64,000 nucleotides of DNA from Cyanidioschyzon merolae (taxonomy: Eukaryota), in the NCBI GenBank assembly GCA_000091205.1, contig AP006487.2; one strand, written 5' to 3'. Made by a program: the position numbers and the translations under genes. Under the pieces are notes generated by a model that saw only the letters and a program-made list of their open reading frames with translations, did not search any database and was not told where the DNA came from. This document shows, in pieces, positions 1 through 60,618 of the stretch (its first letter is position 1; every line of letters starts with the position of its first letter).

Positions 1-597
1 CGGGGTCTGTAAAATCGGGACATGAACGCCATCATCAAATCATTCGAATGCTGAGAATGGAGCTTGACAGAACGGAGCGACCGGTGTATTGTATGGCAGA
101 GAAAGCGAAAGGAGGCAGTTACAGAAAATTCCGCAAGATCTGGTATTGATGCCATTTGGAAGAGACCCAAACTTTCGCAAGTACGTCCGCGTCCACCAAG
201 TCGTCCTCTTCGATTTTATGCTGACACGGGTATAAAAAGTCCAGTGATGAGATGAGCGGAACCTCTCCCAGATTCGCGGTTTCTTCGCTGGGGTACCTCT
301 GGGATGGACGGCACTCACGCATGTATACATGCATGCGCATGCTCACCCCGAGAAAAGCATACATAAAAAGGCAGCAACCTCATTCGTAGAACGAGGGCAG
401 CGGGTGATGATGCTCGTGACTGAATCAACTCATCATCGAGTCGCTCCTGGCAGGAGTATCGGGTACCGTGCCCAGTATGCCTGTAAGCAGACGCCATTTC
501 ATGGCTGTTTCGCAGCGCCGCCTAGCGGCCTCGTCACTCCACCCGGACGCATGCACGCTGCCGACGCAAAGGCGAACCGCAACCTGCTGCGCAAACC

Positions 598-2901: not shown

Positions 2902-5540
2902 TGTAAGCGTAGGGTACTCTTAGCTGTGCCAACCTCTCCCGACACCTTTACATATCCCAGAGCGTGCGAGTTCTGAACCCGAAACGCTACTCAGTGGAAA
3001 GCGCTTGTCGAGTGTCGACACGAGCGCCGCTTCCCGTTCCCCGGCAGCAGACCAGCGGCAGCAAGCGACGATTCGGGGGTTCAGGGAGGTGCCGATCCGC
3101 AGCCTGCTGGGACGGGTGCGCGCTCGCCAGCAACGCAGGCCGCCGGATACCGGGGCATGTCCACGGTGCACTCGCAGACGGCGTCGGGGTAGGCACGGAC
3201 GGCAGAGTGGGTATCCGTATGGGCGCTTGAAGGGAGCCTGATTGCCGCAGAGGTCCTCTTCGTGATTCATGGAACTTGAACGAATTTATGCGGCATGCAT
3301 CTTGCTTCGCTGGCTCTCGATAACAATCGCGCAGCCGTGGAAACCTTTGTTCGACGCATTGATGCCGCACCCGATAAGGACTAGGGAATGGAGTATGCGA
3401 GAGCCCGCTCCGTGCATCGCTGATGGTGTACGCAGCCGATAGCTCTGTTGCGCGCTTTCGCTTCAAGGAGCATCGCTGGGGACGCATTCGATGCATGCTG
3501 GTCGGTTTCATACCGAACAGAATTTGCGGTCGATCGACGATGACTCCAGAGCGTTCGACCCGAAGTTGATCGAGCACCAAATGTTGTTCAGCAGGTAGCT
3601 TCTGATGGAAGCTTTTGTTGCTGGTTCGCGGTGATGGACTCGGCGGTTGCCGATGTCTGGTGTGTTCTCGTGCGTTGCACGTTCGCGCACTGCGCCTTGG
3701 TCAGATACGAACGAAGCACGGATGTGCTCGTTTTGTTTCTGCGTTACGATCTTTTCTGCAGTTTTTGAAGATGAACTGCGCCGTCATTGGAAGTTTGCGT
3801 GTAAGAGCTTATGGACTTGCATGTAGCTCTAGGACTTTCGGTCGACTTTTTTGGAGTTGATGCTTCTCCGCTCGAATTCTGTTCTACACGGGAATCGAGA
3901 TGATTCTCGTCGCTCCTGGACCAGCATTCGTGCAAGAACTGATATCACGATACAACTCGCACGTATAGGCTTCCATTTTCCTCCTCGCCTTACGTGCAGC
4001 ATATTCAGATCACGGAAAAATCAGTTGTTCGATGTTGCTGTTTCAACGCAAGTTGCGTGCGCTGCAATTGGCGCCACTGGATGGACATGACACAAAAATT
4101 TGGTGTCGTCCATTGACGATTCGTTGAAAAGCACATGTGAAATGTTCTCGGAACATGTCACGTAAAATAACCAATTCCATTCCAAGTCCGTATTCTTGTA
4201 AGTTTTCGATCAAAGATGAGACGGTGCTCCAAAAGAGTATGGTACCTCCCAGGGGATATGCCTCCAGAATCACATGGTTTCGCTGTTTGCATGGAAAAAA
4301 GTTCTTGGGGCTCGGATTTTCCGCAAAGAAACGATCTCTCTCAAGGAGAAAAGCGTCATCGCTTTGCACGAAGCAAGCGTGGACGGATCCGAATTCGTCG
4401 AATTTTATCCATTCCGGACGCTTTTCCAGGTACTTGTTTCTTCATGGACAACAGCGTCGCGTTCCGTAAATCCTCGATCGAATGGGGCAACGAGCGTTTC
4501 TCTGTGCTGCGGTCAGAACACTCGCTGAAGAGATTTGGTAGCAGAAGCCCATTTTCGTACGGTACGGAGCTCGCGGGCAGGGTAACCGTAGACGGAATCC
4601 AATGGGACCTTCTGAGCCCGTCAAGCACATGTACCGAATGATATGGCAAGCGTTTGCACGCAACGCGGCAGCTTCACGAGCAGGAGATGTGCTTGACATT
4701 TGGGATCACTTGACGACCGTCAAGTTTCACTGCTGCAAAGCTAGCACCGAGGCAATATACAAAAGCATGAAAGCGGCAAAAAAGCCTCGATCGCATCTTG
4801 TGTCTGTGCATGAACTGCGTCACCAACAGGCGGATGCTGCGAAATCGGGAATCAAACGCCGCCACCTGCATCCTTCGGCTCTTGACAACGGAACTGGGAT
4901 CACAAGACACTCGTGCGCATTCAGAGCCGTAGACTAGAGATAGCAAAAGGAAGCTGTGCCCAAAAATTCCACAAACGCCGGTGTTGATCGTATTCAGAAT
5001 AGTCATAAACTTTGGTGTGAACGCCCGTGTTTTTCCCAGTGCACTTTTTTTCAAGCACGATTGCAATAGCAAAGCGTCTGGTGCAAGAGCGTTGCAATCG
5101 CCGTCGCTCCCAGGATACCGATCTGCCGTACGCGCCGCTGCAGGGTCCGCGGATCGCGCGCCCGTGCCAAGCAACGCATCCGCCCTTGGAGCGTTACGCG
5201 CAATGCATCGATGCGATGCATTGCGCTGCGCGCTGCAGGATACCCGCCTGCAGCCGATGCCGTGCGGTGTTCGATCTCCGCATCGACTTGCGTTCAGCGT
5301 TCCAGGGGTTTCGGTTACCGCTCAGCGGCACCTAGGAATCAGAACGCTGTGGAACAGAGCGGTTCTAGGTCTAGTGGACTGTGCCATTTAAATTCTAGGA
5401 AACTTGAACGTTTCTACGGGAGCAATACATCGTCAGGAACCCCAAAACATTAAAGTGTGGGAAGCTGTCGCCACGCGCTGCAAAGGTGCCCGCGTACGGG
5501 TGCGAGCTGCCGACTGTACCGAACAGAATTCGGTCTGAAA

Positions 5541-18395: not shown

Positions 18396-18984
18396 GCTCC
18401 AGACCTCACTGAAAGCACGTCCGTAACAGTCGCACTGATGGACTTGGCCCTGAAGCGCTCACCGAGACGCAGCGACAGTACGGCTAGGCGCAAGCGCTGC
18501 GCCCTGGCGATGGAGGCGCCCTCACAGAGCCGCTGTGCCAAACTGCCGAGCGACTCTCCCTCTACAAGCAAGATCGAAGCGCCGAACTAGAATTCGGTCT
18601 GACTTGGGGAGTTGCAGACTGTGGTCAGGGAAGAGAGCTTCATCTCTCGGAAGGTGACTGAACACGCCGCAACTGCTCGACCCCGTCTTCTCGCCGGGCA
18701 CGATCACAAGGTGAGAGCCGCGCAACGCTACGGGTATCCAGCCTTGCCCAGAAGGTCGTAGCGACACCTGCAACCTCAATGGTGTGAGATGCATGAGTCT
18801 GAACAGGTTCGCATTGGGTGCTAAAGTGGTTTCGGGGAATACGAAAGGGATCCAGGTTCCTGCAGGTACACTGCTGCTTACGACAACAGTCTGAGTACAA
18901 TTGCTCCGTGGAAGTGAGGCCGCGTCCGTGTCAGCATTATTTGGAACGGGTCGTGCGTCTCTGGCGTATACGCTAAACTTTGAC

Positions 18985-20270
18985 GCTGTTTGCAGTGGCT
19001 TGAACACTGGTCGAGCTGTCTATATCTGCTTCTACTTCCTATTCCTCTCTGTTCCCTCGGATGGAAACGCGCAGGTCTGTCGATTACGTCTAGCTCCGTT
19101 GCCAGCAGTCGAAACATGTTGGTGGCAGCCTTGCAGTCCTGATTTCGCCGCATTCGGCTCTTGTCAACACATCGCAGAGAAAGACAGTAGTTGCGGTCTA
19201 GATTTCGCTTTCCATGTTCATCTTCTTTGGACACAGCGAGGCGCTTCGCAAAAGGTGAAATTCGGCGACGCTCAGGTGCTCCAAGATGTCAAGCACACCG
19301 CTTTTGCCTACGAGGATCATCCCGTGGCGCGTGAACGCTTACTTCATCGCACGCTACATGCCCTTGACGGGAACTAGAGGCTCTACTCGATGCCTTGCTC
19401 CATTTCGGCGCCTGGTACCGCACCTTGGCATCACGGGCTTTTCCTGGGCGATCCCCTTGACGAGTACTCGGTTCGCTGCAGAAGGGATACGCCACTCTAC
19501 TCGATAGAGGATTTGTGGAACGCACTCATGTCTGTCAGAGCACAAGTACTGGAAGGAGAATCTAGGCTGCAGATCGCGTCGAGAAATTTCGATCGGTCTA
19601 TGCTGGCTTGTACACTGCGAGGACGCACGCTCTGCTGGAAGTGATCGCGGCAGTGATTGGATTCCAAATGCAAGACTCTTTGCCACGCAAACGGGCAAGA
19701 TGATAGCCGCTGTGAGCATATTCCGTGAGAGCTATCAAGCTGCAATGGAATCCCGTTTCGTTTACAGGCACGAACATGCAAGTATTCGTATTTCGAATGG
19801 AAACGATTACTGGATGTGACAAGTTCAAAGAACTTTCGGCATGCGCTTGTGAAGAATCCGTCAACGAACGTCGTCAGTTGCGTTACCTAGTCCATCCAGC
19901 GCTGCACATTGCTGCACCTTCGATTCGACTTGGAATCGAAAAATCGAATTCTTGGAGAATGCATGATTTGAGCTTGCTAAACGTCAGGAAAGGAGAACAT
20001 CGGAGGCCTGCACCCATATATTGGATCACGATATCGGTTAGGTAACGAACGCTAGTTCGAGGGCGTCGCCAATGGTCTTGACGCCGGTAACGTCACGAAC
20101 TCCAGTGGGAAAGCGTCGCAGGAGCCACTCCAATGAGACGACCGAAAATCCTCGTTCTACCCATGAATCCAGCATAGCTCTGCCATGCATTTCAATGTCG
20201 TAGCCGTGCAACTAAGAAAAGTTCCGGAAGAAAATCGAAAGGTAAAAATAGATGGACCCGTGCTGTTTTC
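18985..20270 (-). pseudogene. TnpB/Fanzor-like RuvC nuclease relic, family II copy 1 (TnpB-sized, ~1.2 kb, frameshifted)
   Basis: Minus-strand fragments in order: SLEWLLRRFPTGVRDVTGVKTIGDALELAFV; VNETGF; CALTDMSAFHKSSIE (RuvC-I-like, D codon 19532-19530); TEYS; HVACDEVS; LRCVDKSRMRRNQDCKAATNMF (RuvC-III-like, D codon 19138-19136). It aligns by eye with copies at 22.2-23.5 kb and 59.1-60.4 kb. Multiple stops and frame changes. Confidence 0.55.
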
Positions 20271-20506
20271 CATTGTCATCGAACATAGGTATGGCATAGC
20301 GTGGACTCCTGCATGTAGCGACGTCGCCGCCGCCGCCGCCGGCGGTGCGCTTTAGAGACACGCCGAACAACCCCAACGACAAGGCTGCTTCTGTCTGTAG
20401 CGTTTCCGCGTTCTGGTAGCCGTCAACACGTTTCGCTTCGTTCGATGTACAAAGCTTTCGACGGTGCAGCGAACGCTTTCCCGTGTCCATGAAGAAGCGC
20501 TTTTAG

Positions 20507-21592
<1,086 letters not shown>

Positions 21593-22229
21593 AAGCCGGG
21601 TTTTGGCTCAACGGGGTACGAGCGGTGCGCTCTGGAAGAATGATGCGCAGGCGTTGTGCGCGTTCGGCGGCAATCGCTGAAAGTGAAATGTGCAGATAAT
21701 GCAAAGTGTCCAGTCGTCCGATTAGGCTCCATGGATGAATGAGGAAGCGGAAGGCGTCCCTGCCATGGTTTTCCCCAGCGTCTACCAGCTGAGTCTATTT
21801 TGGGCGGCACTACTCGAACGCGTCGGGGGAAAAGACGACCCCAGACTCCGGAAAGGCGCCACAGTGTACACCATTTTGGCTATGTTGTGGCGAATCTCGT
21901 GTATCTGTTCGTGTGGATCCACTTCGGGCTGCAGGCAAAAATGGGTACGTCGCACTAACGCGCTATCCTTCATCCGTGGGTCTGAAACACCACTGCGCGG
22001 GAGATCTTTTCGCCCCGTGGAGCATGCCTCCGATAACTTAAGCTTGTCAAAGACGGAGAGAACCATAGCTTACCTATGTGCGCGTAGGAACGCGTATCTG
22101 CCATCAGCACTAGTCGGGAGAACCTGCATGGACTATGAGTAGCCTTGTGCACGGAGCAAGTTCCCTGAAAAACTACCCACCCATGCCCCCGTGTCAGATT
22201 CAAATGGAACACGAAACCGCTTGCTCTGT

Positions 22230-23465
22230 CGCAGCCTTTCTATTTTGGCAAAAATTGGTTTAGATATACAGCCCCGGCATTCGAAGTTTATCAGTATGGG
22301 CTAGCGGATCTACGGGTGGTATTCGGATTCTCGGTCACCTTTACGATGTGGCTCTTTCGACGCTTTGCCGCTGGAATTCGTATATTACCGGAACCGAAAT
22401 GATTCGCAATGGCATCGAATCATGATTCGAAAAATAATCGATGTCGTTCCCCAATTCCTATGTACAAGTCTCTGCACTTGTCTTTTGCTATGTGAAGCGT
22501 GCTCTTGTCACGCATTATGCCAAGTTTTCGAGCTTTCTGTTCCAAGGCGACTCGAGGGCACAGCAGTTTGCGCACCTGAATTCACGACGGAAAGAGAAAA
22601 CGACGTCGTCTCTCGACGGCTCTTTCGCAAGGCTCCTCGCGAACATTCACCCCACTGCTGACGTGAAATTATCGATTCCATGCGAACAACATATGCGTCT
22701 CTCTTGTGGCCGTCGACTAGACGAGATTCCACAACAGCTGGAGACCGCTCACGGGATATGCTTGCAGAGGCGCCCATCTCTTTTTTTTTTGCGTGGAGAA
22801 AGACCCCGGACTCCGACTTGAGACATTCCAGAGATCAGTACCAGTGGGGCGTGCGTCGCTGCTTTGCTTGAAGCAAGTGCAGACGAAGCGAAAGCTCTCG
22901 TCCTGGTCTCGAGCCTGCATTCGCTTTTTCATAATTGTTTCATCATGGTCAACATCGGATTCCACAACTCGTCTACAGAATGGAACAGCGTACGCTTGTT
23001 TGTACCGCGGACAGAGTACTCGCCAATGGTATCGCTCAGAAAAAGTTCATGATCGTTGTGCATTGCACTGGGCAGGAAACCGAGAAGAGCAGCGAGGCGA
23101 AACCTCTGCTCTCTGACCTGGATGTATCGGACGGTAAAGCAAGCATTTTCGCGCCACAATGCAGCACTCGTAGGGGAAAGCGTAGCGGACATGCGGGAAC
23201 ACCCGACCACAACCTCCGGTCACTGCGACGAACGGAGTACCAGGACTATTTCCAGAAGTGATGAACGCAGATGGCGACGCATCGTTCACAGATGCTTTGG
23301 GGTCATGAAATGCGTCAATCACAGCCGCAAGTGTCGAAATCGGTACTCGAACGCTGCCACCAAAATGCTTGGATCGCTGACAACGGACCTGGAAGCGCAG
23401 CAGAGAACCTACTAATCAATGCCGGATATGAAAGATGGGAAAAGCAAGCAGGCATAGAAAACGTT
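22230..23465 (+). pseudogene. TnpB/Fanzor-like RuvC nuclease relic, family II copy 2
   Basis: One frame from 22864 to 23415 is broken by a single stop (~23050). It reads CFIMVNIGFHN (RuvC-I position, N codon 22951-22953), TEYS, NAALVGES, GHCDERSTRT, then KCVNHSRKCRNRYSNAATKML (zinc-ribbon remnant plus RuvC-III position, Y codon 23344-23346). Upstream blocks (ggattctcgg.. at ~22325; RLDEIP) align with copies 1 and 3. Confidence 0.55.
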
Positions 23466-23659
23466 CGCAAAGGCCAATAAGGATGGTATGGAGAAGACAA
23501 CAGCATTTGAATATGTATGCCCGAGTTATAGGGCCCGTTCTGTTTTCTAGTCTTCCAACTCAATTGTGTTTCCCCTCAGATGCGGTGAATAGCAGGAGGT
23601 CGAAATCACGATGGCATGTGTTGTATAGCTTGCAGACGAGGTGACTGTAGGATATATTC

Positions 23660-33700: not shown

Positions 33701-34087
33701 TATCCGGCGAGATATAGAGACCTGGTGCGGAATGACTAGTGATTTCATAGGCACCGTTGAGGTAGTCGTCTGCAGGGAACTCCTGCTCGTGTCGCAGAAG
33801 CTGCGTTACCGCCACACCAGCATCGAGTGGTATCCGGCGAGATATAGAGACTTGGTGCGGAATGACTAGTGATTTCATAGGTACCGTTGAGGTAGTCGTC
33901 TGCAGGGAGCTCCTGCTCGTGTCGCAGAAGCTGCGTTACCGCCACACCAGCATCGAGTGGTATCCGGCGAGATATAGAGACTTGGTGCGGAATGACTAGT
34001 GATTTCATAGGTACCGTTGAGGTAGTCGTCTGCAGGGAACTCCTGCTCGTGTCGCAGAAGCTGCGTTACCGCCACACCAGCATCGAG
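33701..34087. repeat. 130-bp tandem repeat, ~3 units
   Basis: tatccggcgagatatagagac starts at 33701, 33831 and 33961. Units are >95% identical by eye. 130 is not a multiple of 3, so the repeated peptide in minus-strand ORFs (MKSLVIPHQVSISRRIPLDAGVAVTQLL..) shifts frame between units. Confidence 0.95.
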
Positions 34088-40277: not shown

Positions 40278-42009
40278 CCGCAGTCACCGAAAGCCTTCAC
40301 AAACGCAAGCACAATGCGGGCGCTGGAACGCACCACCGGAGGTGCTCAGCTTCCGGAGGATCCCGATACACGTCGCGATGGCGGACACGCGGGCATTCGA
40401 ACAGCGGCCGCCGTCGGCATCGCGCACACCCAGCGCACACACTGCAACGGCCGGGGTGCGGCGGCGCTCATCAGGGACGGATCAGCGCCGGCGTGCTGTC
40501 CTCCGGCGCGGGGCTGTCGACAGCCGTAGAGCGCCCGCCGTTCCCGCGGCTGGAGAGGCGGCGGCGCTCGCAGTTCCCGCTGCACCCTGGTGCGAGTCCG
40601 GGAGCCTGCACCTTCAGGTTGCAGCACTGAGGGCGGTGGGGATCGGCGTGGGCGCGCCCAGCTCCACAGCATGGCAGGTCTCTGCATGGAGTGCATTTGC
40701 ACAAGAAAGTCGCATCGAGGACTCTGCGTATCTGGACTGCATGTGCGCTTTGCCGATACACGTATACCAGAATAAGACGGAACAGGTCCACGCAGCGAAC
40801 ACGGGCGTGCCTAATAAAGTTTTGATCGCTTCCCGTAAGAGTCAACACAAGATTTTGTGCGTATTTTTGTGACTTGTTATTTTTATTGCTCTTTTTTTGC
40901 TGAATTTCAATGTGCTGGTCTCTAATGTGTCTGCAGCTCCGTTTGTCAGCAGTCGAAGAATGCTGATGGCAGCGTTCTCCTCCCGAGTTCGCAGCATTCG
41001 ATTCTCATTCACGCATTTCGAACAGGCAGGCTGAAGTTGCGATCTCGGCTGCGCTTGTCATGATCATATCCTTTGTAGACAGCCTCAGTGCGCCCTTTGC
41101 AGCATGAACCTTGGCCACGGTCAGTGATTACCGTACGTGCACGACACGACACCTCTTCCGAAAAATGCCCTGTGCCGCACCAAGGAATGCTTCGCTGATC
41201 GGTGTGCGCGTTTGACTGGTACAGAGGGCCCGATGTGTTCCCTGTATTCGTTTTCGCGCCCGGTGCCGTGTTCTCCGATCATGGGCTTGCTCATGGCGAT
41301 CCTTCCAGGGTGTACGCTATCCCCTGCACGCACACGCTGTAACATTGGATGGGCGATTTTTTTGGAACGCGATCTTGTTCATGATGGAGCGGTTGGCGGA
41401 AGGGAATTCCAGGATGGTGAGCAATAGAAAAAATTTAGAGTCGTTTATGTTCAGTTCCTAGAACGCAGTGACATACTCTCTACTCTGAGTAATCGCCGCA
41501 ATGACTGGTGTGCAGCACGAGTCGTTGCTTCCGCTGTGAGCGGCGAGGCTGGATATCGGCGTCATGGCTGGTGCCTGCTCGCAGACGGGTGCTGCGATGG
41601 TCACCTGGCACCGCTTATGGCACCCAGAGAACCGCTTCTGCTGCACGTTCGAACAGACGACGGAGCCAGCGGACCTCTGTGACGACCTCGAAAGCTAGCC
41701 AGGTATTCCAGCTCCTTTGGCGGTGTTCCGCGACGGTTTCATCTCGGCAATGATGCAGCGGATGCACCTCGAGGACAATGGAAACCTACGCTTATCGAAG
41801 TCTGAGCGCGTCTTGTCGCAACGAACTCCAGAGACTGGCATGTTTCGCGTCTCGCATGATACGCTGGCCTCGTTTTAATGTTGCACCTCATTTGTGTTCC
41901 GCTTGCAGGTGCGTGTCATCAAGTGCTTCCTCGCGGGTTATAGCGGACGTGTTCAAAGAGCGTCCATTTTCAAAAATAAACTATCCTAGGGAGATGTGTA
42001 TGTATGAAA

Positions 42010-42690
42010 ATCGGGGATCCTGATGTGCTAGTGTCGCCGGTTTCAACAGAAAAAACGAAAAATTCTCTTCTCACCGACCATCGAGCGAAGGAGAGCAAGT
42101 TTTATGAAAAAGTAGAAAAAGAGAGGAACGGCGGGTGAAAAGTTTTTGTATGCCTGATGTGACGATTACGAGACTGTAACGGGACAGAGGGCACACTGAC
42201 GAAGGCGCCTTGCATTGATGAGTCCCATCAGAGGCAGCAAACGCATGGAATTCGTGAACAGAGACTTGAACTCCGCCATCAAAATCAGACCATTTGTGTT
42301 ACAAAAGGCGAGGCGCGCGGAACTTACGTTAGCGAAAGGTTTGGGACAGCCTCTCAGGTTCGAAGTGTACACGGGACAAATTGAAACCGATATCTGGTTG
42401 CTGGTCAGAAAAAGGCTTCGAGGCGCCTGTGAGTGCGTATCATTTTCCCCTGTCGAGCCGACGCTCTCTGTGGTGCGGCATAGCCGTTCTGTCTCCGTGC
42501 AAGGACCGCATCGGCCCTGTAGACGCTATCGCCGACGCTCTGGGCATGCACTCGGCGCACGATAGAACGTACGGAACGACCATTATATCCGAGAGAAAGT
42601 ATGGGTTACGGAACGTGGAAGTAAGGCGTGGAATGAGGGATACCTTACAGCGCGCTGATGACGAGCGCAGAATCCGAGAACGCTCGCCAC
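42010..42690 (+). pseudogene. TnpB/Fanzor-like relic, family I copy B (5'-truncated, plus tail forming the left palindrome arm)
   Basis: SKRMEFVNRDLNSAIKIR (D codon 42263-42265). Upstream, ..ccatcgagcgaagg.. aligns with copies C and D. Downstream conserved block LVRKRLRGACECV. The tail from ~42452 is the left arm of the palindrome. Confidence 0.5.
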
Positions 42691-42987
42691 AGCAACCACT
42701 TTGGCATTTTTTCACTGACAAAACGTTTACTTAGGCCAGCGTTCTCCGATTATGCGCTTTTTTCTTTTCTTTCTTTTTTTTCAGTGCGAGGTGAGGTATC
42801 CATCAACCCCCTACCTCCATGTTACATTACCTATACTTCGTCTCGGATATTCTGGTCGTTTCATACGTCCTATCGTGTGTGCCTAGTACCTGCCGTTCCG
42901 TATTCGCGTCTGCGCTTGAACCGCTGGAGCAGATAGCTCATAGGGCTAAAACAGCTTTTCTATACCACAGAGGGCGTCGGCTCGAGG
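42452..42987. repeat. Large imperfect palindrome (inverted duplication): arms ~42452-42688 and ~42734-42987, 45-bp centre
   Basis: The reverse complement of 42795-42878 matches 42558-42644 (cacgatag.acgta..gaacgacca..atatccgaga..aagtat.ggt...gggatacc). It extends inward (gcgcagaatccgagaacgctcgcc 42665-42688 vs revcomp of 42734-42757) and outward (ctgtcgagccgacgctctctgtggt ~42450-42474 vs revcomp of 42961-42987). It also shows as YFLSDIMVVPYVLSC / YFVSDILVVSYVLSC in opposite-strand ORFs. Confidence 0.85.
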
Positions 42988-45900: not shown

Positions 45901-46950
45901 GCGCTGTGAGCAGGTGCCTGGGATTGGCGACGGCTTTCTTGAGTTCCAGCTGGGGTGCCCTTTCGGGGGATACCTTGTGATGGGCTCGTTTGGGAGTTCT
46001 TCTTTCTATTCTTCTGTTTTTTCTTGCTGGTCTACTTCTTCTTCGGGCTCTTTCCTGAGCTGCTTTCTCTGGTTATTTTGCATTTAAGGGGATCATGAGG
46101 TTTCTGTGTCTCTTTCTCCGTACCTCGTTGGGTCTCTTTTCCAATTGTAGAGTCCTCGACTTGTATCAGTTCTTCATTACTGTACTGGTAATTCGATATC
46201 TCGTGGTTAAATACCGAGGCGATCCCGCTAATATTCCATGATGCGAAACCTATCGAGTCGTAGCGCATAAGGGAATAGGAGTAACGCTGCGGTACTCCAG
46301 AGATACGTTGTCGATTTAGACGCAGCTTCCACAGGGTGTGTGAGAGCACATGCCACCATTGCCTCCTGCATTCCAGTCGTTCACTGAGTGTCTGCCGCAG
46401 CGCTAGCGTAGAATCAGATGTACATTAGTCAAGGTCGATTCGAATGCGAACTTTGTCTTTCCGGACGCGTGAAGCTACCCTCAACCATTGGGAAAAGTCT
46501 GCAAACCACCATTTCAGCGGCTTTGTATCCGCTCCCCAAACACATAGGCGGGCAAGTCGCTTATTCCACTTTCGACAGTGAGCATACTGCCAGCTGTCTT
46601 CCAAAGTATCCGCCGAGATTGTTTCCAAAGTTGAGGTAGGTACTCAAGGTAGAAGGTGAAACTGAGCCCGAATTCAGGGATGGATCCAGTATTTGTGCCC
46701 GAACCTGCAGCGTTGTTTCGGGAGCAGCGGATGACTGCGCTCAGAATTATCGTCATCATTCTCTGCTACTGCCTACGCCCCTCCGTTCGTTGCGGTCAAG
46801 GCCCCTGGCGTGGACTTCCTTCGCAGTCGCTCAAGCACCCCGCGTTAACCCACTTTCAGAGGTTCTCCGGAAAGACTAGACCCCTTAGGCGGACGTGGTT
46901 TGTGGGGCTTTTAAGATAGTGGTTCCTTGATAAATAGTTTGCGACTAGTT
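42990..46950 (-). mobile_element. Non-LTR (LINE-type) retrotransposon relic: APE-like endonuclease plus reverse transcriptase, multiply frameshifted
   Basis: RT blocks on the minus strand: PGIDGIPAEWMKL, NIYR.., FDTFPHE, RRGLRQGDPASPLLFNIFINDL, GLLFADDVVLLA (D codon 44456-44454), YLG, PATCGAEWCG. C-terminal Cys motif: CTCYRDEIPETLTYLGLQWPR. Endonuclease-like fragments at 46.0-46.9 kb (FYLEYLPQLWKQSRRILW, VWGADTKP, NHEISNYQ). The 3' limit is uncertain. Confidence 0.8.
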
Positions 46951-47159
46951 TGCATCGCGCTCGGTGAGCGCACCTCGGAGATCGGGCAGGCATGAGACGC
47001 TACGCGCATGCCACTGTTGAAGGGAAACACGTGACCTTGATCAATAGCGTGTTGTTCTGCTGTAAAAGTCGGATTCCCGTTGAGGGCGTAGCAAAGTATA
47101 GTTTTCAGTTCATTTCTGTTTCAACCCTCAAGTAAAAATACTCGAGTGTTTTTTCGCAG

Positions 47160-47167
47160 TATATAAG
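47160..47167 (+). promoter_or_regulatory. TATA-like box (TATATAAG) ~210 bp upstream of the family I copy C start codon
   Basis: Direct reading, inside an A/T-rich block (47100-47340) that is unusual for this window. No functional evidence. Confidence 0.2.
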
Positions 47168-47376
47168 AGAAGCGTTCAAAGAGCATTCTTTTTAAAAAAA
47201 CTAAAAAAAGGAAAAGTATGTAGGAGCAAGTCCACGATCCTGGAGGCCCACTGTCGCAGGCTGCCAGAAAGAAAACAAAAAACAGTGCCGAGTCCAGAAG
47301 AACAGGGAGAGAGAAGAAGAACCGAAGAGGGGAGGCCCTACGTCGAAGGTGGCAAGAAAGACGACTGTACAACGAG

Positions 47377-48980
47377 ATGGTGGTGAAAGCCTTTCTTCTT
47401 GGACATATCAAGGATCCCTACAGGGAAAAGTTGCGAGACGCTATCGAAAAACGTGTCGACTCGTATTCCGAGAGTATTATCAAGGCGTCGTCAGGGCTGA
47501 TGCATTTGGCGAGGGAGATGTATCGCGACATGGCGCACATGGAAACAGTCGAGATTCCGGACGAGTTTCTCGACATGACCTTTATTTGTCAGCTAATGCT
47601 TGGTACAGCGGAAACGCGGAAGGAAAATGTGCTAGTGCACGCCCTCCACGAAGAACATACCTTTTACAGCTTCAATGGTACTCGATACAAGGTGACGGAG
47701 ATATTTACATCTATGGGGCGATGAAGTACCTCACGAATCTGAAGAACCATTTGACAATGAACCTCGAACGTTTCACGGTACGCGCCGTGTGTGCACTCTA
47801 CCCGGGCCTATCTCGCAAAGGAAAATGGGCGATTATCAATGGCATCACGAAAGATCGTAAGCATGAAGATGAGACGGATTTCGTTGACAAGAAGGCGTCA
47901 AACGAGAGCACGAATGAAGCTTCTGTAATCCGTGCTGCTATTCAAGAGCACCGTGCAATCCTGGGACTGGATTATCCAGCAGAAAAGATATCAGAGTTGA
48001 AAAAAGATAAGGAAACATACGATCGCCTCATTCTACGGTATTTCGTGTTTCTGGACCAAGAACTCGAACGCGAGGCGGAGATGAAGGTGAATAGGGGAAA
48101 AATGAAGAGTGGGAGAGACGGAAGGCTGTCCTAACGGGGAAGCGCTTCAACGTGGTTCCATTGTGCAACATCAAGTCAGATTTTGTGACCATCGGCTCCG
48201 GCGTCCTTTACGGCATCATGAAGCAGATCAGTCCGGAGTTCAGTGTCAGCAGGGAGGACTTCACCGGCGAAAACCGGGAGACGTACTGCAAGAGTATCTT
48301 CGATTTCAAACGTCTGAGAGTGAGCAAGCAAAAGTTGTTTACTGGGATGATCGTAACCGATGGAGTAGAATTGTGTGCAAACTATCGGCGGTTGAAGAGA
48401 GATCGGCCAGTCCCTCCCTCGGCTGCGCCCGTGACGAAGGATCAAGAAAACAAAGAGGTGTATCCTGCGACGCAGGAGGTGGAGGATAGAGACCTTGTCG
48501 TTGACGTGACCAAGGATGAAGAAAGGGAGGAGGCGGATCTTGCGACGCAGGAGGTGCAGGATTACGACCTTGTCGTAGGCGTGGACCCTGGGAATACGAA
48601 TGTCCTAACCATCGCAGCACCGAAGCGTGCGGAAGATGGAAAAGTGCCAGCGGAATCCTGAAGATATACAAAAGTACGGACCGCTGACGGAAGGGCGAAT
48701 GGAAAGGAGAGCGAAAGTTCGAGGATTGCTTGCATCAGTAAGTACAACCAGTGATGGCAAGAAACGGATGGAGTTTGTGAAGCGAGGTTTTAATGCCGCA
48801 ATCAATCTACGGAGATGTGCGGTGCTAGAGAATAAACCTCCAGACTGGACAAGAAGGAACCTTGTTGGACAATCTCTCAAAGGTGAACTATATGAGAGAA
48901 AGCTGGAAGCAGTAGTGGGTAGCCAGTCCAAAAAGACGGGGGGGGGGCGTCTGCACGTCAGCTGGAGACGATTTGTCTAA
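47377..48980 (+). pseudogene. TnpB/Fanzor-like gene, family I copy C: longest copy, N-terminal ~400 codons retained, three frame changes and an internal deletion of the RuvC-II/zinc-finger segment
   Basis: Four consecutive ORFs in frames 1,0,2,0: 47377-47724, ~47700-48134, 48152-48661, 48627-48980. RuvC-I-like [17 protein letters not shown] (gac 48584-48586). RuvC-III position KRMEFVKRGFNAAINLRR (G instead of D, ~48786) lies only ~67 codons later. A 60-bp internal duplication gives [14 protein letters not shown] / [15 protein letters not shown]10 homopolymer at 48938-48947. Confidence 0.6.
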
Positions 48981-49117
48981 GGCGCGTTCGCCGCCATTGC
49001 TGCGTACTGCCGGCGTCGTTCGACTTCGAACGGCGTTCGTGACCGAAGCTCATCCGCGGATCCAGCTGCACGCCGCTGCTTCATTCAGGACGCGTTGTAT
49101 AACAACGTCAGGGAACC

Positions 49118-54350: not shown

Positions 54351-54569
54351 AGGTAGTGCAAAGAACACACCGTACCGGTAAGTCGCGCGTGCCGTGGAGG
54401 CGAACGCTGTCGTTCATTCGGCAGCGCTCGAGGCTGGCACCGACTTGCCCGACTAGATGCACTACTTTTTGCTCTTTGACCACAGTGAGATTGATTAGTC
54501 AGGTGTGTGTCATCAAATGCCTTATTCGGTTTATAGCAGATGGGCTGCAAAGTGCGTTCATTTAGAGAA

Positions 54570-55060
54570 ATAGAGAATATAAGATATAGGTATGGAGATT
54601 GAAGTCGAGGATCCTGGATTGCCTCTGTCCACGGGTGTCGGAAAAGAACGGGAATTTTCTCATCTTTTCGACGATCGAGCGAAGAAGACCAAGAAGAGGG
54701 GAGATGGACCACAAAAATGTGTTTGCCCGACGGGGCGATGACGAGAATCTAATCGCACAGAGGGCACGAGTTCTGGCAATCCCTGCATTGATGCGTTGCA
54801 CCAGATGAACTGCATAGAACGGCTCGTGAACGGAGACTTCGACGTCACAAGCAATATCAGGAGATGTGCGGTGCTGAAAACGAGACTCGCGGAGCTGACG
54901 CGAACTAAATTCGAGTGGCAGCCTCTAATACCCCCAGTGTGCCTGGATAAAAACCGCAACCGATGGCAGTCGGCGGATAGAAAAAGACTGGGCGGTGTCT
55001 GCGCGTGGGCAGCTATATGTACTCTCGATGGTGGTAAAACATTGCACGTTTTATAAATCA
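54570..55060 (+). pseudogene. TnpB/Fanzor-like relic, family I copy D (most degraded)
   Basis: ILDCLCPRVSEKNGNFLIFSTIERRR aligns with [21 protein letters not shown] of copy C. AQRARVLAIPALMRCT then CIERLVNGDFDVTSNIRRCAVLK (gac 54835-54837) aligns with KRMEFVNRDENAAINIRRCAVL. The tail block is RKRLGGVCAW. Confidence 0.45.
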
Positions 55061-57661: not shown

Positions 57662-59139
57662 TGCTTCCTGGCAAGGCTAGCGCAGGTCTCGTGCCTGTGG
57701 CTGCGTTATCCACATGGGGGCCAGTGCCTTTCGCCCGCGTCTCGCTCTATGTGCGGCGACTTTGGGATCGCGCTCGCCTTTCACGCCAGTGTGTGTGTAT
57801 CTATGTGTGGGTTGCCCTGTCTTTCATGCAGGGCTTGCGTACCATGCGGGCGTTTGTTGCCCTGCCCTTCGTAGTTCGCATCAAGTTGGAAAGACGCGAG
57901 TTTCAAAAAGCTCCGGACTGGATCAAAGCACATGGCCAGGAGTTCCCGAACGAGCACGTAAAGTTTGAAGCTGCGCGTTGTTGTCTCTCGGAGGTCGAGA
58001 CGGACAGAAACGGATTTGTTTGGAAAGCCGACCAGGGCGCATTGGTCACGCAGGGCGCCTCGAGCGGAGTCCTGTTGCACACGAGAACGCTGTCGAAGCC
58101 GAAAGGAGCATTTTCGAGCCAGAGCGCCATCGGGGCTGTTGCGCGTAAAACGGATCTTGCGACTTTATGCAGCCGCTGCTTGCATTAAAAATAAGCCTAC
58201 TATGATCGTCTGCATGTCCTCGGTCGTGCGAAGATGCACGGCAGCTAGCTGGGTCTCAGCGGCGACAGTTTACGCTGGCCTGGTGGCATCGGCCTGTAAC
58301 CGCAGGGCACCCGAAGGGATGGGCATTTCGGCCGCGCTCCGGGGACATGGTGATAAGTCCCCGCATTCATGCGTGCCGAGCTTCCCTGAACGTCGGTAAT
58401 GATCGCGCACGTGAGCATTCCGGAGGACAGACTCAACAATCCAGCACCGTGAAAAATGGACGCGTATCGCCGGGACTCGAGCCCCGTGGACACCACGGCC
58501 AGCTGCGGTTGCCGTGGCAGAGCGCGAGCGGTGAGCGCCGGCTCCTTTTTGACGAATGCTTGACCCTGAGCCTGTCGATTTGCGTTCGAGAACCGCGAAC
58601 ACTCGCCGATGCTCTGGTTACGGATGCATCATCACAGCGCCACACGGCGCTGAACCGAAGGCACTGCAACACTGGGGGAGTGCATTGGCGTGCGGACGAT
58701 TCGCTGGGGGTTTCGCAAGACGTTCGGATTTGCTCGTCATGAAGCAGGTTGGGATCTGGGTCTCTCATATGCAATCGCCACTGGGCATCGAATGGATTTG
58801 TTGACCTCGAATGGGGTTCGGATCCCGCTGGCTGGGTAGCTCGGCTACGCGCGCACTGGGCGCGCTTGTGCTGCTCCGGAGCACGGACTACCGAAGCAAC
58901 ACAGCTGGACGCAGGGCTTGGATCCCGTCAGGCCAGAGAGGGCCGGCTTACTCAAGCGCGTTTTGAACACGTTGCAGGCGGTGAGCTCGAGGCACAATGT
59001 CTTCACATGCTGATCCTGAAGAAACTAAATTCACGCGCGGGGATTTTGTGTGCTGCAGACGAGGCTGGACACCGCAGCGACGACCTCCACCAATGGGAGA
59101 TTAAAATGGAGCACTGGGCTGCTCGCTATGTACGTGGAT

Positions 59140-60375
59140 AGGTTCTTCTCGACTTGTCTTTTCAGATGTAGAGCTGTGACTTTTCGAGAGCAGCAACAAG
59201 GGCTTGAGCACTCGTGTGTCGGTTTAGGATTCTCGGCCATAGTTTCAGAGTGGTTTTTTCGACGCTCTTCCACTAGGACTCGTTACATCACCGAAATCAA
59301 GACCATTCCCGATGTTCCGGAACTAGGGTTCGTAAACGAACCAATATTCGTCTCCAATGTGTACGTAAAGGTTTCCAATCTTCTCAATATCTTACTTTTG
59401 TAGCGTGCTCAAGCCACGTATGCTTGTAGTTTTGTCTCTTTCTTTCTCAAGGCAACTCATTGATATCGCAATGCTCGCCATTGCTTCGACGAGGGAAAAT
59501 GCTGGACGTCGTCCCTCGGAGACTTGTTCACGAGTTCATACCGACAATACGCGCAACATGCCACTTCGAATCATGCATTGCTTTCAAGCGGTACACTCAA
59601 TGCTCTCTGCGGCGGTCAACGAAACAGGATTCGCTATCTGCCTCGTACGTCTCACAGGACATACTTCCGGAGGCTGCAGTCTGTCTCTATTTTGCCTGGA
59701 ACGTTGTCTAGATTTCGGAATTGAGTCATCCGGGTGTCCGTGTCGAGTGCTACGTACGTCACTGTTTTGCACGAAGGAAGCGTCAAGGGATCGAATACCT
59801 TCGACTTGTTATCCAATCTGGATTTACCCCCCGATGTTTGTTTCATCACGAACAACATCGTGTTCCACCAATACGTTATCGAACGGAACAGGGCGCGGTT
59901 GGACTTGCAGCCATCAGCGCCGTCGCCGAGTACATCGCTCAGATCAAGCACGTGATCGCAGAGCACGGCGCCGGGTGCGGAAACTGCAATGGATATCAAG
60001 GGGAATCTTCTCTTCTCCGAAATGGCAAGTAGCCTGCGATGAAGCACGGGATCGCGCGCTGTAGGACGGCGCTCGGAGGACGAGGAGATATGGTCGATGC
60101 ATAGGCACACTTGGCAGCGGTCAAATGTCACCGCTGTGAAGCGCGGACCCCAGCTGTACACAAAAACAGATGAAAACAGCAAGCGAAGCGCGGATCGCGA
60201 TTTTCACCTGTGCATGGTTTGCGTGACCAGCAGCCGGACGCAACGGAATCGGAACTCGAATGCCGCCATCAACAACCCGCGAATGCTGAGAACGGAACCG
60301 AAGACTCACGAGAGACCAGCATATGTAGATCAGCAGATAATCGAGAAGGAAAGAAAGTAGTCTCAGAAAATGCAC
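59140..60375 (+). pseudogene. TnpB/Fanzor-like RuvC nuclease relic, family II copy 3
   Basis: In order: VSEWFFRRSSTRTRYITEIKTIPDVPELGFV; VNETGF; CFITNNIVFHQ (RuvC-I position, N codon 59854-59856); AEYIAQIKHVIAEHGAG; NVTAVKRGPQLYTKTDENSKRS (resembles the v.v.E.yTSKtC..C block); HLCMVCVTSSRTQRNRNSNAAINN (C-x2-C plus RuvC-III position, N codon 60253-60255). Several frame changes. Confidence 0.55.
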
Positions 60376-60557
60376 TCAGAATCTGGTATTGGTGATACGA
60401 GCACGTGATCAAAACGCTTGCGTTCTCGCCCGCGTCAGCAAAGTGATCGCGCGCATCGTTCCCCCACGCTGACACGCGTGTCCAGCGAGCTGCCTGCCAG
60501 GCACGCAGACGCGCACGCATGGCGGCGGATCGCGAAGGCGCCACCGCCGCGCTTCGG

Positions 60558-60618
60558 CGGCGATGCGCAGGAGCGCGCGGCGATGCGCAGGAGCGCGCGG
60601 CGATGCGCAGGAGCGCAG
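60558..60618. repeat. 20-bp tandem repeat x3 (CGATGCGCAGGAGCGCGCGG)
   Basis: Units start at 60561, 60581 and 60601, in the spacer between family II copy 3 and the DCC-family gene. Confidence 0.9.

What the first reader, a model, noticed from the sequence alone, without database searches (positions are those of the whole stretch)
59140..60375. Family II is TnpB-sized (~400 codons), with different catalytic-residue decay in each copy
Three copies align by eye over ~1.2 kb: 18985-20270 (minus), 22230-23465 (plus, with a ~50-bp deletion near 22370) and 59140-60375 (plus).
- Shared blocks in order: xEW(F/L)(F/L)RR..R.(I/V)T.(I/V)KTI.D..EL.FV; VNETGF; CF-I-x-x-(D/N)-I/M-x-F-H; TEYS; the DE/TK block; the zinc-ribbon remnant; RuvC-III.
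- Spacing: ~230 codons to RuvC-I, ~130 codons between RuvC-I and RuvC-III, and ~400 codons in total. This resembles bacterial TnpB (408 aa in ISDra2) rather than long Fanzor1 proteins.
- RuvC-I Asp: kept only in copy 1 (TDMS, 19532-19530). It is Asn in copies 2 and 3.
- RuvC-III Asp: kept only in copy 1 (NQDCKAA). It is Tyr in copy 2 and Asn in copy 3.
Homology ends ~110 bp after RuvC-III, at ~18985, 23465 and 60375, after an A/G-rich block (gaggaataggaagtagaagcagatatagac and equivalents). That marks a candidate element right end.
Basis: partly seen in the sequence, partly recalled or inferred. Interest (0 to 1): 0.75.

Follow-up and report, generated by a model that had tools for sequence, protein, structure and literature searches.

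The report
Dead mariner-type transposon with Fanzor tail
The repeat is not a decayed TnpB-sized gene but an ancient, dead, 1.37-kb cut-down copy of a two-gene transposon (a Tc1/mariner-type transposase followed by a Fanzor nuclease); it litters the supposedly transposon-poor genome of the red alga Cyanidioschyzon merolae.

Summary
The window is Cyanidioschyzon merolae 10D chromosome 5. The repeat is real, but the window holds six copies, not three. Four are full length: 3699-5057 (+), 18929-20285 (-), 22192-23560 (+) and 59094-60474 (+). Two are partial: 40765-41508 (-) and 1-226 (+).

I added nine more copies from related hot-spring metagenome contigs and built a 14-copy consensus of 1,367 bp.
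- It ends in 19-bp terminal inverted repeats: TGTCAGATTAAAATGGAAC ... GTTCCATTTTATTCTGACA.
- Its first ~780 bp encode the N-terminal ~235 residues of a Tc1/mariner/IS630-type transposase (Pfam DDE_3, 37.6 bits, above threshold).
- The next ~520 bp (about nt 794-1317), in another reading frame, encode only the last ~175 residues of a Fanzor: zinc ribbon plus RuvC-III (Pfam PF07282, 31.5 bits, above threshold). This part aligns with the known C. merolae Fanzor1 (hhalign probability 93%).

One long copy carries 2,090 extra bases at the junction that continue the transposase in frame. An intact relative sits directly upstream of a 636-aa zinc-ribbon protein. Family II is therefore an internal-deletion, non-autonomous derivative, decaying neutrally. 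It is a new member of a known kind.

The parts
59094..60474 (+). Family II copy 3, the copy in the finding: a complete short-form element, inverted repeat to inverted repeat, 1,381 bp
   Evidence: 14-copy alignment and mapping of the termini. The sequence at the ends was read directly.
59094..59112 (+). Left terminal inverted repeat (TGGGAGATTAAAATGGAGC here; consensus TGTCAGATTAAAATGGAAC)
   Evidence: The consensus left end and the reverse complement of the right end match at 18 of 19 positions.
59166..59885 (+). Remnant of the 5' ~235 codons of a Tc1/mariner/IS630-type DDE transposase.
   Evidence: Consensus translation hits Pfam DDE_3 at E 2.4e-9, 37.6 bits, above the 28.6 cut-off. phmmer E 2e-17 and BLASTP E 5e-27 to the intact transposase P0117. 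Coordinates.
59879..59891 (+). Deletion junction. Transposase-derived DNA meets Fanzor-derived DNA here, with a change of reading frame.
   Evidence: The long copy L013 9067-12464 carries 2,090 extra bases at consensus nt 781-793. Mapping.
59892..60419 (+). Remnant of the last ~175 codons of a Fanzor1-type gene. It holds the G-x-G block, zinc knuckle 1 (60114-60137, AAVKCHRC), zinc knuckle 2 (60211-60222, CMVC), RuvC-III (60250-60276, RNSNAAINN with Asp replaced by Asn), a basic tail and a stop codon.
   Evidence: Consensus hits Pfam PF07282 at E 2e-7, 31.5 bits, above the 26.3 cut-off. hhalign against CMe-1 Fanzor1 proteins gives probability 93%, P 3.2e-7, score 57.8 against a shuffle maximum of 23.9. 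Coordinates.
60458..60474 (+). Right terminal inverted repeat, degenerate in this copy (GTTCCCCCACGCTGACA; consensus GTTCCATTTTATTCTGACA)
18929..20285 (-). Family II copy 1, full length (1,357 bp). It keeps Asp at the second DDE position (19532-19530) and at RuvC-III (within 19141-19115).
22192..23560 (+). Family II copy 2, full length (1,369 bp). The right inverted repeat is degenerate.
3699..5057 (+). Family II copy 4, full length (1,359 bp).
   Evidence: nhmmer E 3.3e-173. Mapping.
40765..41508 (-). Family II copy 5, the 3' 744 bp only.
   Evidence: nhmmer E 1.1e-76. Mapping.
1..226 (+). Family II copy 6, the 3' end with an intact right inverted repeat (..TTTTATGCTGACA). It is cut by the start of the window.
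   Evidence: nhmmer E 4e-24..

Best explanation
Family II is a non-autonomous DNA transposon of Cyanidioschyzon merolae, long dead.

**Parent (inferred).** The parent was a ~3.4-kb element bounded by 19-bp inverted repeats. It carried two genes on one strand. The first was a Tc1/mariner/IS630-type DD35E transposase of about 310 aa. The second was a Fanzor1-type RNA-guided nuclease of about 640 aa.

**Deletion (shown).** An internal deletion of ~2.1 kb removed the last ~70 codons of the transposase, including the third catalytic residue. It also removed the spacer and the first ~460 codons of Fanzor, including RuvC-I. What remains is a 1,367-bp element with both inverted repeats, a truncated transposase reading frame and, out of frame with it, the Fanzor zinc ribbon plus RuvC-III.

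**Spread and decay (inferred).** This short form was presumably moved by cut-and-paste by transposase supplied in trans by long copies. It spread to roughly one copy per 13 kb of the sampled sequence in a single old burst. Since then it has decayed neutrally at fixed positions between genes.

**Shown:** the copies, the termini, the two domain identities, the frame change, the long form, the two-gene relative and the neutral-like decay.
**Inferred:** mobilisation in trans, the order of events and the genome-wide copy number.
For: **Host and copies**
- The window is C. merolae 10D chromosome 5.
- There are six copies in the window and nine more in about 140 kb of related metagenome contigs.

**Consensus and domains**
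- The 14-copy consensus is 1,367 bp with inverted termini matching at 18 of 19 positions.
- The N-terminal reading frame hits DDE_3 at E 2.4e-9, 37.6 bits (cut-off 28.6), over profile positions 3-113 of 146. It also gives weak HTH_32 and HTH_33 hits.
- The C-terminal reading frame hits PF07282 at E 2e-7, 31.5 bits (cut-off 26.3).
- It aligns with CMe-1 Fanzor1 proteins at hhalign probability 93%, P 3.2e-7. The score is 57.8, against 15.0 +/- 2.6 for 200 column shuffles.

**Intact relative**
- P0117 (307 aa) has DDE_3 at 1e-16 and HTH_Tnp_Tc3_2.
- It matches the consensus from Met1 (MYSLDLR.. against MYSLDIR..) at E 2e-17 and BLASTP 5e-27.
- On its 3,273-bp contig it is followed after 92 bp, on the same strand, by a 636-aa PF07282 protein.

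**Long form**
- L013 9067-12464 has the same ends and 2,090 extra bases at consensus nt 781-793.
- The extra DNA continues the transposase in frame (..DNITFHQPSS..YIPTYSPWLN..). This gives DDE_3 to profile position 121 at E 1.4e-7, with the same D-to-YSP spacing as P0117.

**Decay**
- Identity to the consensus is uniform at 66-79% along the element. Pairwise identity is 53-61%, a star-like pattern.
- Orthologous copies in environmental relatives differ by 0.95-1.7%. That is close to other intergenic DNA (1.3-2.2%) and above most genes (0.1-1.2%).

**Precedent**
- Mariner elements that encode a transposase plus Fanzor1 are known (Bao & Jurka 2013, PMC3627910).
Against: - No target-site duplication could be recognised. 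TA flanks only 4 of 21 ends, where a Tc1/mariner origin predicts TA.
- Only one long copy was found among 13 copies that span the junction. Its extra 2.1 kb has no second copy in about 200 kb.
- The Fanzor N-terminal part of that long copy is too decayed to be recognised. The only trace is a RuvC-I-like 'VIGLGGMN'.
- The DNA of the intact two-gene relative could not be read, so its termini and its Fanzor could not be compared.
- No match to solved Fanzor or TnpB structures was found at sequence level.
- The domain calls rest on a consensus, not on any single window copy. Single copies and the 3-copy consensus gave no Pfam hit; a stitched 6-copy consensus gave only E 0.045.
Confidence: 0.85

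Rival explanations
1. One reading: each copy is a decayed TnpB- or Fanzor2-sized gene of ~400 codons, with RuvC-I about 230 codons in and RuvC-III about 130 codons later. It would belong to an IS200/IS605- or IS607-type element.
For: The zinc ribbon and the RD-x-NAA-x-NI motif are real. The total length of ~1.3 kb happens to match TnpB. The three- and six-copy consensus gave no competing domain hit.
Against: - The first ~235 codons are a DDE_3 transposase, collinear from Met1 with an intact Tc1/IS630-type enzyme.
- The supposed RuvC-I Asp is the D of the DDE motif D-N-x-x-F-H.
- The two halves lie in different reading frames in the consensus.
- The element has 19-bp inverted repeats, which IS200/IS605 and IS607 elements lack (Bao & Jurka).
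- A long form restores the transposase.
Confidence: 0.03
2. Family II is a diverged subfamily or fragment of the known C. merolae Fanzor1 repeat CMe-1A. That repeat is the 3.2-kb 'WSV486-like' interspersed repeat, the window's Family I.
For: Both carry a Fanzor C-terminus and occur in the same genome, sometimes close together. One example is copy 2 at 22192-23560 with a CMe-1A 3' fragment at 24586-25039. hhalign detects homology between them.
Against: - The shared region is only 25% identical at protein level.
- Family II keeps the four zinc-finger cysteines, which CMe-1 has lost.
- CMe-1A has no inverted repeats and no DDE transposase (Bao & Jurka).
- No DNA similarity links the two families.
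Confidence: 0.03
3. The short form is not a deletion product. It is the original element, encoding a natural transposase-Fanzor fusion or a truncated regulatory transposase. The long copy would then be a short element that received an unrelated 2.1-kb insertion.
For: The truncated transposase frame is almost open in the consensus, with one stop (TGA) at a position where a related decayed copy (P0116) has Arg. Only one long copy was seen.
Against: - The extra DNA of the long copy continues the transposase in the same frame, with the expected Y-S-P-x-L-N motif at the expected spacing.
- The short form lacks the third catalytic residue and any RuvC-I.
- The intact relative has two separate full-length genes.
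Confidence: 0.06
4. The loci are segmental duplicates of a host pseudogene rather than a mobile element.
For: All copies are dead and sit at fixed orthologous positions in related strains.
Against: - Fifteen copies sit at unlinked loci.
- Flanks are unrelated immediately outside the conserved inverted termini.
- Both coding remnants are transposon proteins.
Confidence: 0.01

Closest known systems
Tc1/mariner elements that carry a Fanzor1 gene (PGv-1, PUl-1, PUl-2, PUl-4; Bao & Jurka 2013, Mob DNA 4:12)
   Same: - The transposase lies 5' and Fanzor1 lies 3', on one strand, between short inverted repeats (24-33 bp in the PUl elements, 19 bp here).
- Total length is about 3.4-3.8 kb, against about 3.4 kb for the long form here.
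- Derivatives that lack a working transposase but keep the inverted repeats are known (PUl-4).
   Different: - Here the dominant form is a 1.37-kb internal-deletion chimaera that keeps only pieces of both genes.
- No TA target duplication can be seen.
- The host is a red alga, for which only the unrelated CMe-1A Fanzor1 family was reported.
- All copies are about 27% diverged from their consensus.
CMe-1A / CMe-1 Fanzor1 of C. merolae (Bao & Jurka 2013). [quoted passage not shown] 2007, BMC Biol 5:28).
   Same: The genome is the same. The Fanzor C-terminal architecture (G-x-G block ... E-x-x-T ... RD-x-NAA-x-NI) is shared and alignable. Both are old families, spread between genes.
   Different: - CMe-1A is 3.2 kb, has no inverted repeats and no DDE transposase.
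- Its Fanzor has lost the zinc cysteines.
- Some of its copies are still intact and it has many open relatives in metagenomes.
- Family II has no intact copy among the 15 seen, and only 25% protein identity to CMe-1 in the shared part.
Bacterial TnpB (for example ISDra2, 408 aa) and Fanzor2 of IS607-type elements
   Same: They share the zinc-ribbon (TNB) domain and the RuvC-III motif (Pfam PF07282).
   Different: - Family II has no RuvC-I or WED/REC part.
- It has inverted repeats and a DDE partner, not a Y1 or serine recombinase.
- The similar overall length is a coincidence of the deletion.
Internal-deletion non-autonomous DNA transposons (for example Ds from Ac, and deleted Tc1/mariner copies)
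   Same: Both ends are kept, the middle is lost, and the derivatives outnumber the autonomous form and depend on it.
   Different: The deletion spans two genes. It leaves a mosaic that mimics a single TnpB-sized reading frame.

Membership tests
TnpB/Fanzor (motif of Bao & Jurka 2013: D-X(125,275)-[TS]-[TS]-X-X-[C4 zinc finger]-X(5,50)-RD) | RuvC-III 'RD' motif (RD-x-NAA-x-NI) | tested here: met
   The consensus reads RNRDLNAAINIL. Among the window copies, Asp is kept only in copies 1 and 6.
TnpB/Fanzor | C4 zinc ribbon preceded by [TS][TS]-x-x, and a match to Pfam PF07282 | tested here: met
   The consensus reads T-T-A-K-C-H-R-C ... C-M-K-C. PF07282 scores E 2e-7, 31.5 bits, above the 26.3 cut-off. 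A stitched 6-copy consensus reached only E 0.045; single copies and the 3-copy consensus gave no PF07282 hit.
TnpB/Fanzor | RuvC-I Asp 125-275 residues upstream in the same reading frame | tested here: not met
In the short form, DNA upstream of consensus nt ~781 is transposase DNA in another frame.
TnpB/Fanzor | Open, full-length reading frame | tested here: not met
   All 15 copies carry stops and frameshifts. The protein searches found no intact relative of the Fanzor part.
TnpB/Fanzor | Guide RNA (omega RNA) gene at the 3' end of the element | tested here: inconclusive
   The consensus 3' 227 nt folds somewhat better than shuffles (z = -2.9, 1 of 200). There is no Rfam hit in the window. 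Covariation cannot be assessed on neutrally decayed copies.
Fanzor1 rather than Fanzor2 or TnpB | Long protein (about 600-1000 aa), associated with a eukaryotic DDE or other transposon rather than an IS607 serine recombinase | tested here: met
   - The neighbour of the intact transposase P0117 is a 636-aa PF07282 protein.
- The partner is a DDE_3 transposase.
- The C-terminus aligns with CMe-1 Fanzor1.
- I made no direct comparison with Fanzor2 or TnpB profiles.
Tc1/mariner/IS630 (ITm) DNA transposons | DDE_3-type catalytic domain with an N-terminal helix-turn-helix region | tested here: met
   - DDE_3 scores 37.6 bits on the consensus and 31.9 bits on the single long copy.
- HTH_32 and HTH_33 hits are weak.
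- The consensus is collinear from residue 1 with P0117, which has HTH_Tnp_Tc3_2 above threshold.
Tc1/mariner/IS630 (ITm) DNA transposons | Complete D-D-E/D catalytic triad | tested here: not met
   - In the short form, D1 (IDET) and D2 (MDN) are present in the consensus, and the third residue is deleted.
- In the long copy the region is present, with the DD35E spacing of P0117. The third position reads Met in this decayed copy.
Tc1/mariner/IS630 (ITm) DNA transposons | Terminal inverted repeats | tested here: met
   18 of 19 positions match between the consensus ends. The repeats are recognisable in most copies.
Tc1/mariner/IS630 (ITm) DNA transposons | TA target-site duplication | tested here: inconclusive
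   TA adjoins 4 of 21 scorable ends, and no copy has matching direct repeats. At about 27% divergence, roughly half would be expected to survive.
Non-autonomous internal-deletion derivative | A longer form with the same ends whose extra DNA restores the interrupted gene(s) | tested here: met
   L013 9067-12464 (and the same locus in L014) has 2,090 extra bases at nt 781-793. They continue the transposase in frame. Restoration of the Fanzor N-terminus could not be shown.

The most novel reading that the evidence does not exclude
The short form may not be a random deletion product.

**What it keeps.** It retains the two inverted repeats, the DNA-binding part of the transposase and the last ~575 bp. 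In Fanzor and TnpB elements that last stretch is where the guide (omega) RNA is encoded.

**What that would mean.** It would be a 'guide-RNA-carrying' non-autonomous element. It could use both the transposase and the Fanzor nuclease of long copies in trans: cut-and-paste movement, plus Fanzor-guided cutting of emptied donor sites to restore the copy. That would explain how it reached roughly a thousand copies.

**Consequence for the genome.** On that copy number, about 8-10% of a genome published as 0.7% transposons would be this one family.
Probability: 0.1. Interest if true: 0.55.

Novelty: new member of a known kind. Interest (0 to 1): 0.3.

Why it matters
**Corrects a tempting misreading.** A mosaic of two truncated transposon genes happens to be TnpB-sized, and its DDE aspartates were read as RuvC-I.

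**Adds to the record for C. merolae.** The literature I could search lists one Fanzor1 family for this alga (CMe-1A). It gives transposons as 0.7% of the genome, with eight class II elements (Nozaki 2007).
- Family II is a second, independent Fanzor lineage, tied to a Tc1/mariner-type transposase.
- If the sampled density holds (15 copies in about 203 kb, and 10% of this window), it would be one of the largest repeat families of the genome.

**Offers a neutral-evolution record.** The full-length copies, each ~27% diverged from the consensus, show very few indels relative to substitutions in an extremely compact genome.

**Limits.** It is not a new kind of system, and nothing suggests any copy is active.

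Tried and rejected
**Too few copies.**
- Three-frame translations of single copies and of the 3-copy consensus gave no Pfam hits.
- A stitched 6-copy consensus gave only PF07282 at E 0.045, nothing in the PDB and no homologues.
- The signal appeared only after I harvested more copies.

**Frame-finding on 4-6 copies failed.** Codon-periodicity and BLOSUM frame scoring did not single out a frame except in the last ~180 nt. My first stitched frame path was wrong in the N-terminal part.

- The same query found no relatives in viral contigs.
- The PDB sequence search with the improved Fanzor remnant found nothing.
- The DNA of the intact two-gene contig was unavailable.

**Readings I dropped.**
- I first took the ATG inside the left inverted repeat (AAAATGGAAC) as the start codon. 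The transposase starts at consensus nt 72 (MYSLDIR).
- I first placed the junction after an 'AYSP' that resembles the transposase YSP motif.
- The target-site duplication search (TA or longer direct repeats) was negative or inconclusive.
- I read Rudenko & Korotkov 2024 (PMC11050394), on dispersed repeats in C. merolae. The section I read (section 7) did not identify this family.
Full report
**Host and setting.**
- The window has long intron-free reading frames for ordinary eukaryotic genes: PIP5K, SepSecS, Dim1, a PAK kinase and a DEAH helicase.
- Three of its proteins are exact matches to Cyanidioschyzon merolae 10D proteins on the 528,682-bp chromosome 5 (CME163C and neighbours).
- No tRNA or Rfam family is present.

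**Checking the observation.**
- The three loci align over ~1.3 kb at 57-60% pairwise identity.
- All are full of stops and frameshifts.
- A DNA profile built from them finds three more copies in the window: 3689-5031 (E 3e-173), 40777-41509 (E 1e-76) and 12-209 (E 4e-24).
- So the family is real, but the window holds six copies. Mapped end to end they are 3699-5057 (+), 18929-20285 (-), 22192-23560 (+), 59094-60474 (+), the 3' half 40765-41508 (-) and the 3' end 1-226 (+). Together they make 10% of the window.
- Copy 2 has no 50-bp deletion.

**First attempts at identification failed.**
- With three or six copies, the consensus was still broken. It gave at best Pfam PF07282 at E 0.045, no PDB match and no homologous protein.
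- Frame-finding by codon periodicity or BLOSUM scoring was uninformative except at the very C-terminus.

**The other Fanzor family in the window.**
- A motif scan showed a second set of RD-x-NAA-x-NI motifs at 24731, 42260 and 48783. They belong to another repeat.
- This repeat includes a near-full copy at about 46.9-49.07 kb with a RuvC-I '[10 protein letters not shown]'.
- A protein search with it returned 80 relatives, several intact (for example P0034, 752 aa).
- They match the CMe-1 Fanzor1 protein printed in the supplement of Bao & Jurka 2013.
- This is the known CMe-1A family: 3,169 bp, about 150 copies, no inverted repeats. [quoted passage not shown] 2007.

**Harvesting more Family II copies.**
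- I used the contigs that encode those CMe-1 relatives as a sample of related Cyanidioschyzon genomes from hot-spring metagenomes.
- The Family II profile found nine further copies in about 140 kb of non-redundant sequence. That is 15 copies in about 203 kb in all.

**The 14-copy consensus.**
- It is 1,367 bp long, and each copy is 67-73% identical to it.
- Its two ends are inverted repeats matching at 18 of 19 positions: TGTCAGATTAAAATGGAAC ... GTTCCATTTTATTCTGACA. Flanks are unrelated outside them.
- One reading frame runs from an ATG at nt 72 for ~260 codons, with a single stop.
- A different frame is open over the last ~180 codons to a stop at nt 1315.

**What the two frames encode.**
- The first frame hits Pfam DDE_3 (the IS630/Tc1-mariner-type transposase domain) at E 2.4e-9, 37.6 bits, above the 28.6 cut-off. 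The match covers profile positions 3-113 of 146. Weak helix-turn-helix hits lie upstream.
- The second frame hits PF07282, the TnpB/Cas12f zinc-ribbon domain, at E 2e-7, 31.5 bits, above the 26.3 cut-off.
- The second frame reads ..VIVGYGTGRGNG..VVDIWEHLTTAKCHRCE..FCLCMKCVDNSRKQRNRDLNAAINILRLL... That is the [TS][TS]-x-x-C4-RD signature of Bao & Jurka.
- A profile of this part aligns with the CMe-1 Fanzor1 proteins over their last ~150 residues. Probability is 93%, P 3.2e-7 and score 57.8. Two hundred column shuffles gave 15.0 +/- 2.6, maximum 23.9.

- 'xEW(F/L)(F/L)RR...' is the helix-turn-helix region read in the wrong frame.
- 'VNETGF' is the first catalytic Asp of the transposase (consensus IDETAF).
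- 'CF-I-x-x-D..F-H', called RuvC-I, is the second Asp in the classic D-N-x-x-F-H motif.
- Only the zinc ribbon and RuvC-III are TnpB/Fanzor-derived.

**An intact relative with the parental layout.**
- A protein search with the consensus found P0117 at E 2e-17. It is a 307-aa intact transposase with DDE_3 (1e-16), HTH_Tnp_Tc3_2 and HTH_Tnp_IS630.
- It is collinear with the Family II frame from the first residues (MYSLDLRNTAIR.. against MYSLDIRSAAIR..), at BLASTP E 5e-27.
- On its 3,273-bp metagenome contig the transposase gene (110-1033) is followed on the same strand by a 636-aa gene (1126-3036) that carries PF07282.
- That is a transposase plus Fanzor1-sized two-gene element. Bao & Jurka described this architecture for PGv-1 and PUl-1. 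The DNA of the contig was not available.

**A long form proves the deletion.**
- One harvested copy (L013 9067-12464, and the same locus in L014) matches the profile in two pieces separated by 2,090 bp.
- At DNA level, the short consensus follows the left piece up to about nt 781 and the right piece from about nt 793.
- The extra DNA continues the transposase in the same frame..FFITDNITFHQPSSLW.TPMNRSFIIVYIPTYSPWLNTNMSFGDLEKLF... The Y-S-P motif lies at the same distance from the second Asp as in P0117 (DD35E spacing).
- This single decayed copy scores DDE_3 at E 1.4e-7, 31.9 bits, now reaching profile position 121.
- The short, abundant form is therefore an internal-deletion derivative. It fuses transposase codon ~238 to the last ~175 codons of Fanzor, out of frame.
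- The rest of the extra segment is too decayed to recognise as Fanzor. The only trace is a RuvC-I-like 'VIGLGGMNAFFT'. No second copy of it occurs in about 200 kb.

**State of the copies.**
- Identity to the consensus is flat along the element (66-79% in 60-nt windows).
- Pairwise identity is tightly 53-61%. This is the star-like pattern of one old burst followed by independent decay. It explains the 'different catalytic-residue decay in each copy'.
- Copies 1 and 2 are present at the same positions in three environmental relatives. There they differ by 0.95-1.7%, close to neighbouring non-repeat intergenic DNA (1.3-2.2%) and above most genes (0.1-1.2%). I see no sign of constraint.
- Indels are strikingly rare: 118 events against 4,395 substitutions, mostly 1-3 bp. 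This is why 1.37-kb copies, each ~27% diverged from the consensus, are still full length.
- No target-site duplication can be recognised.
- The consensus 3' 227 nt, where a Fanzor guide RNA would be expected, folds modestly better than shuffles (z = -2.9). That is only a hint.

**Comparison with what is known.**
- The element works like, and is best filed as, a Tc1/mariner/IS630-type DNA transposon that had captured a Fanzor1 gene. It survives mainly as a non-autonomous deletion derivative.
It has no RuvC-I in frame, it has a DDE partner, it has inverted repeats, and its source gene was long.
- It is distinct from CMe-1A. The shared part is 25% identical at protein level, the zinc cysteines are kept, and inverted repeats are present.
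- The papers I could search list only CMe-1A as a Fanzor family in this alga. They put class II elements at eight copies and transposons at 0.7% of the genome.
- I could not check Repbase, so prior deposition of this family cannot be excluded.

**Verdict.** The thing itself is an ordinary, though previously overlooked or at least little-documented, dead transposon family. It is a new member of a known kind. Interest is modest. The main points of value are the corrected anatomy, a second Fanzor lineage in C. merolae, and the likely large share of this 'transposon-poor' genome that it occupies.

Noticed in passing
window 46900-49070 (+); 24586-25039 (+); 41828-42455 (+); 54427-55027 (+): - These are copies of the known Fanzor1 repeat CMe-1A (the window's 'Family I').
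- One is near-full but internally deleted, with RuvC-I '[10 protein letters not shown]' near 48.5 kb joined almost directly to the C-terminal 'KRMEFVKRGFNAAINL'.
- The other three are 3'-terminal fragments of 450-630 bp.
- All four lie on the + strand, and the three shorter ones are truncated at the 5' side.
- Intact relatives (up to 752 aa) are abundant in hot-spring metagenomes.
   Followed up: partly
window 42453-42985: - This is an imperfect palindrome of about 533 bp (arms about 80% complementary).
- Its right arm starts like the 5' end of the CMe-1A / TE-N2_CMe consensus (..TGACAAAACGTTTAC.. and ..GAGGGCGTCGGCTCGA).
- It appears to be two element 5' ends placed head to head, right next to a CMe-1A 3' fragment and about 950 bp from the truncated Family II copy 5.
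   Followed up: partly
window 13976-15345: This is a tandem array of a 77-bp unit, 17.8 copies, 96% matches, between the DUF3493 gene and the ubiquitin-conjugating enzyme gene. It appears about 1 kb shorter (collapsed or truly shorter) in the metagenome contigs of related strains (L001-L003).
   Followed up: no
window 33700-34087: This is a tandem repeat of a 130-bp unit, 3.0 copies, 98% matches.
   Followed up: no
window 60540-60612: This is a short G+C-rich tandem repeat (GGCGATGCGCAGGAGCGCGC, about three copies), about 70 bp downstream of the right end of copy 3.
   Followed up: no
all Family II copies (window and L004-L014): - The indel rate is very low relative to substitutions: 0.027 events per substitution, nearly all 1-3 bp.
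- The elements are about 27% diverged from their consensus, and 12 of 15 copies are still full length.
- This is unexpected for so compact a genome. It suggests that genome compactness here is not maintained by a strong deletion bias.
   Followed up: partly
L013 9067-12464 (same locus L014 5598-8994): This is the only long form of Family II seen (about 3.4 kb). Its extra 2,090 bp holds the transposase C-terminus and, presumably, the decayed Fanzor N-terminal two thirds. It is the best starting point for rebuilding the autonomous element.
   Followed up: partly
window 18396-20518 and 2902-5456: Copies 1 and 4 each fill most of a divergent intergenic (two-promoter) region. Copy 1 lies between CME163C and Dim1, and copy 4 between PIP5K and the next + strand reading frame. 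Only about 230-530 bp (copy 1) to about 400-800 bp (copy 4) of non-repeat DNA is left upstream of each flanking gene. I did not examine whether the elements contribute promoter sequence.
   Followed up: no
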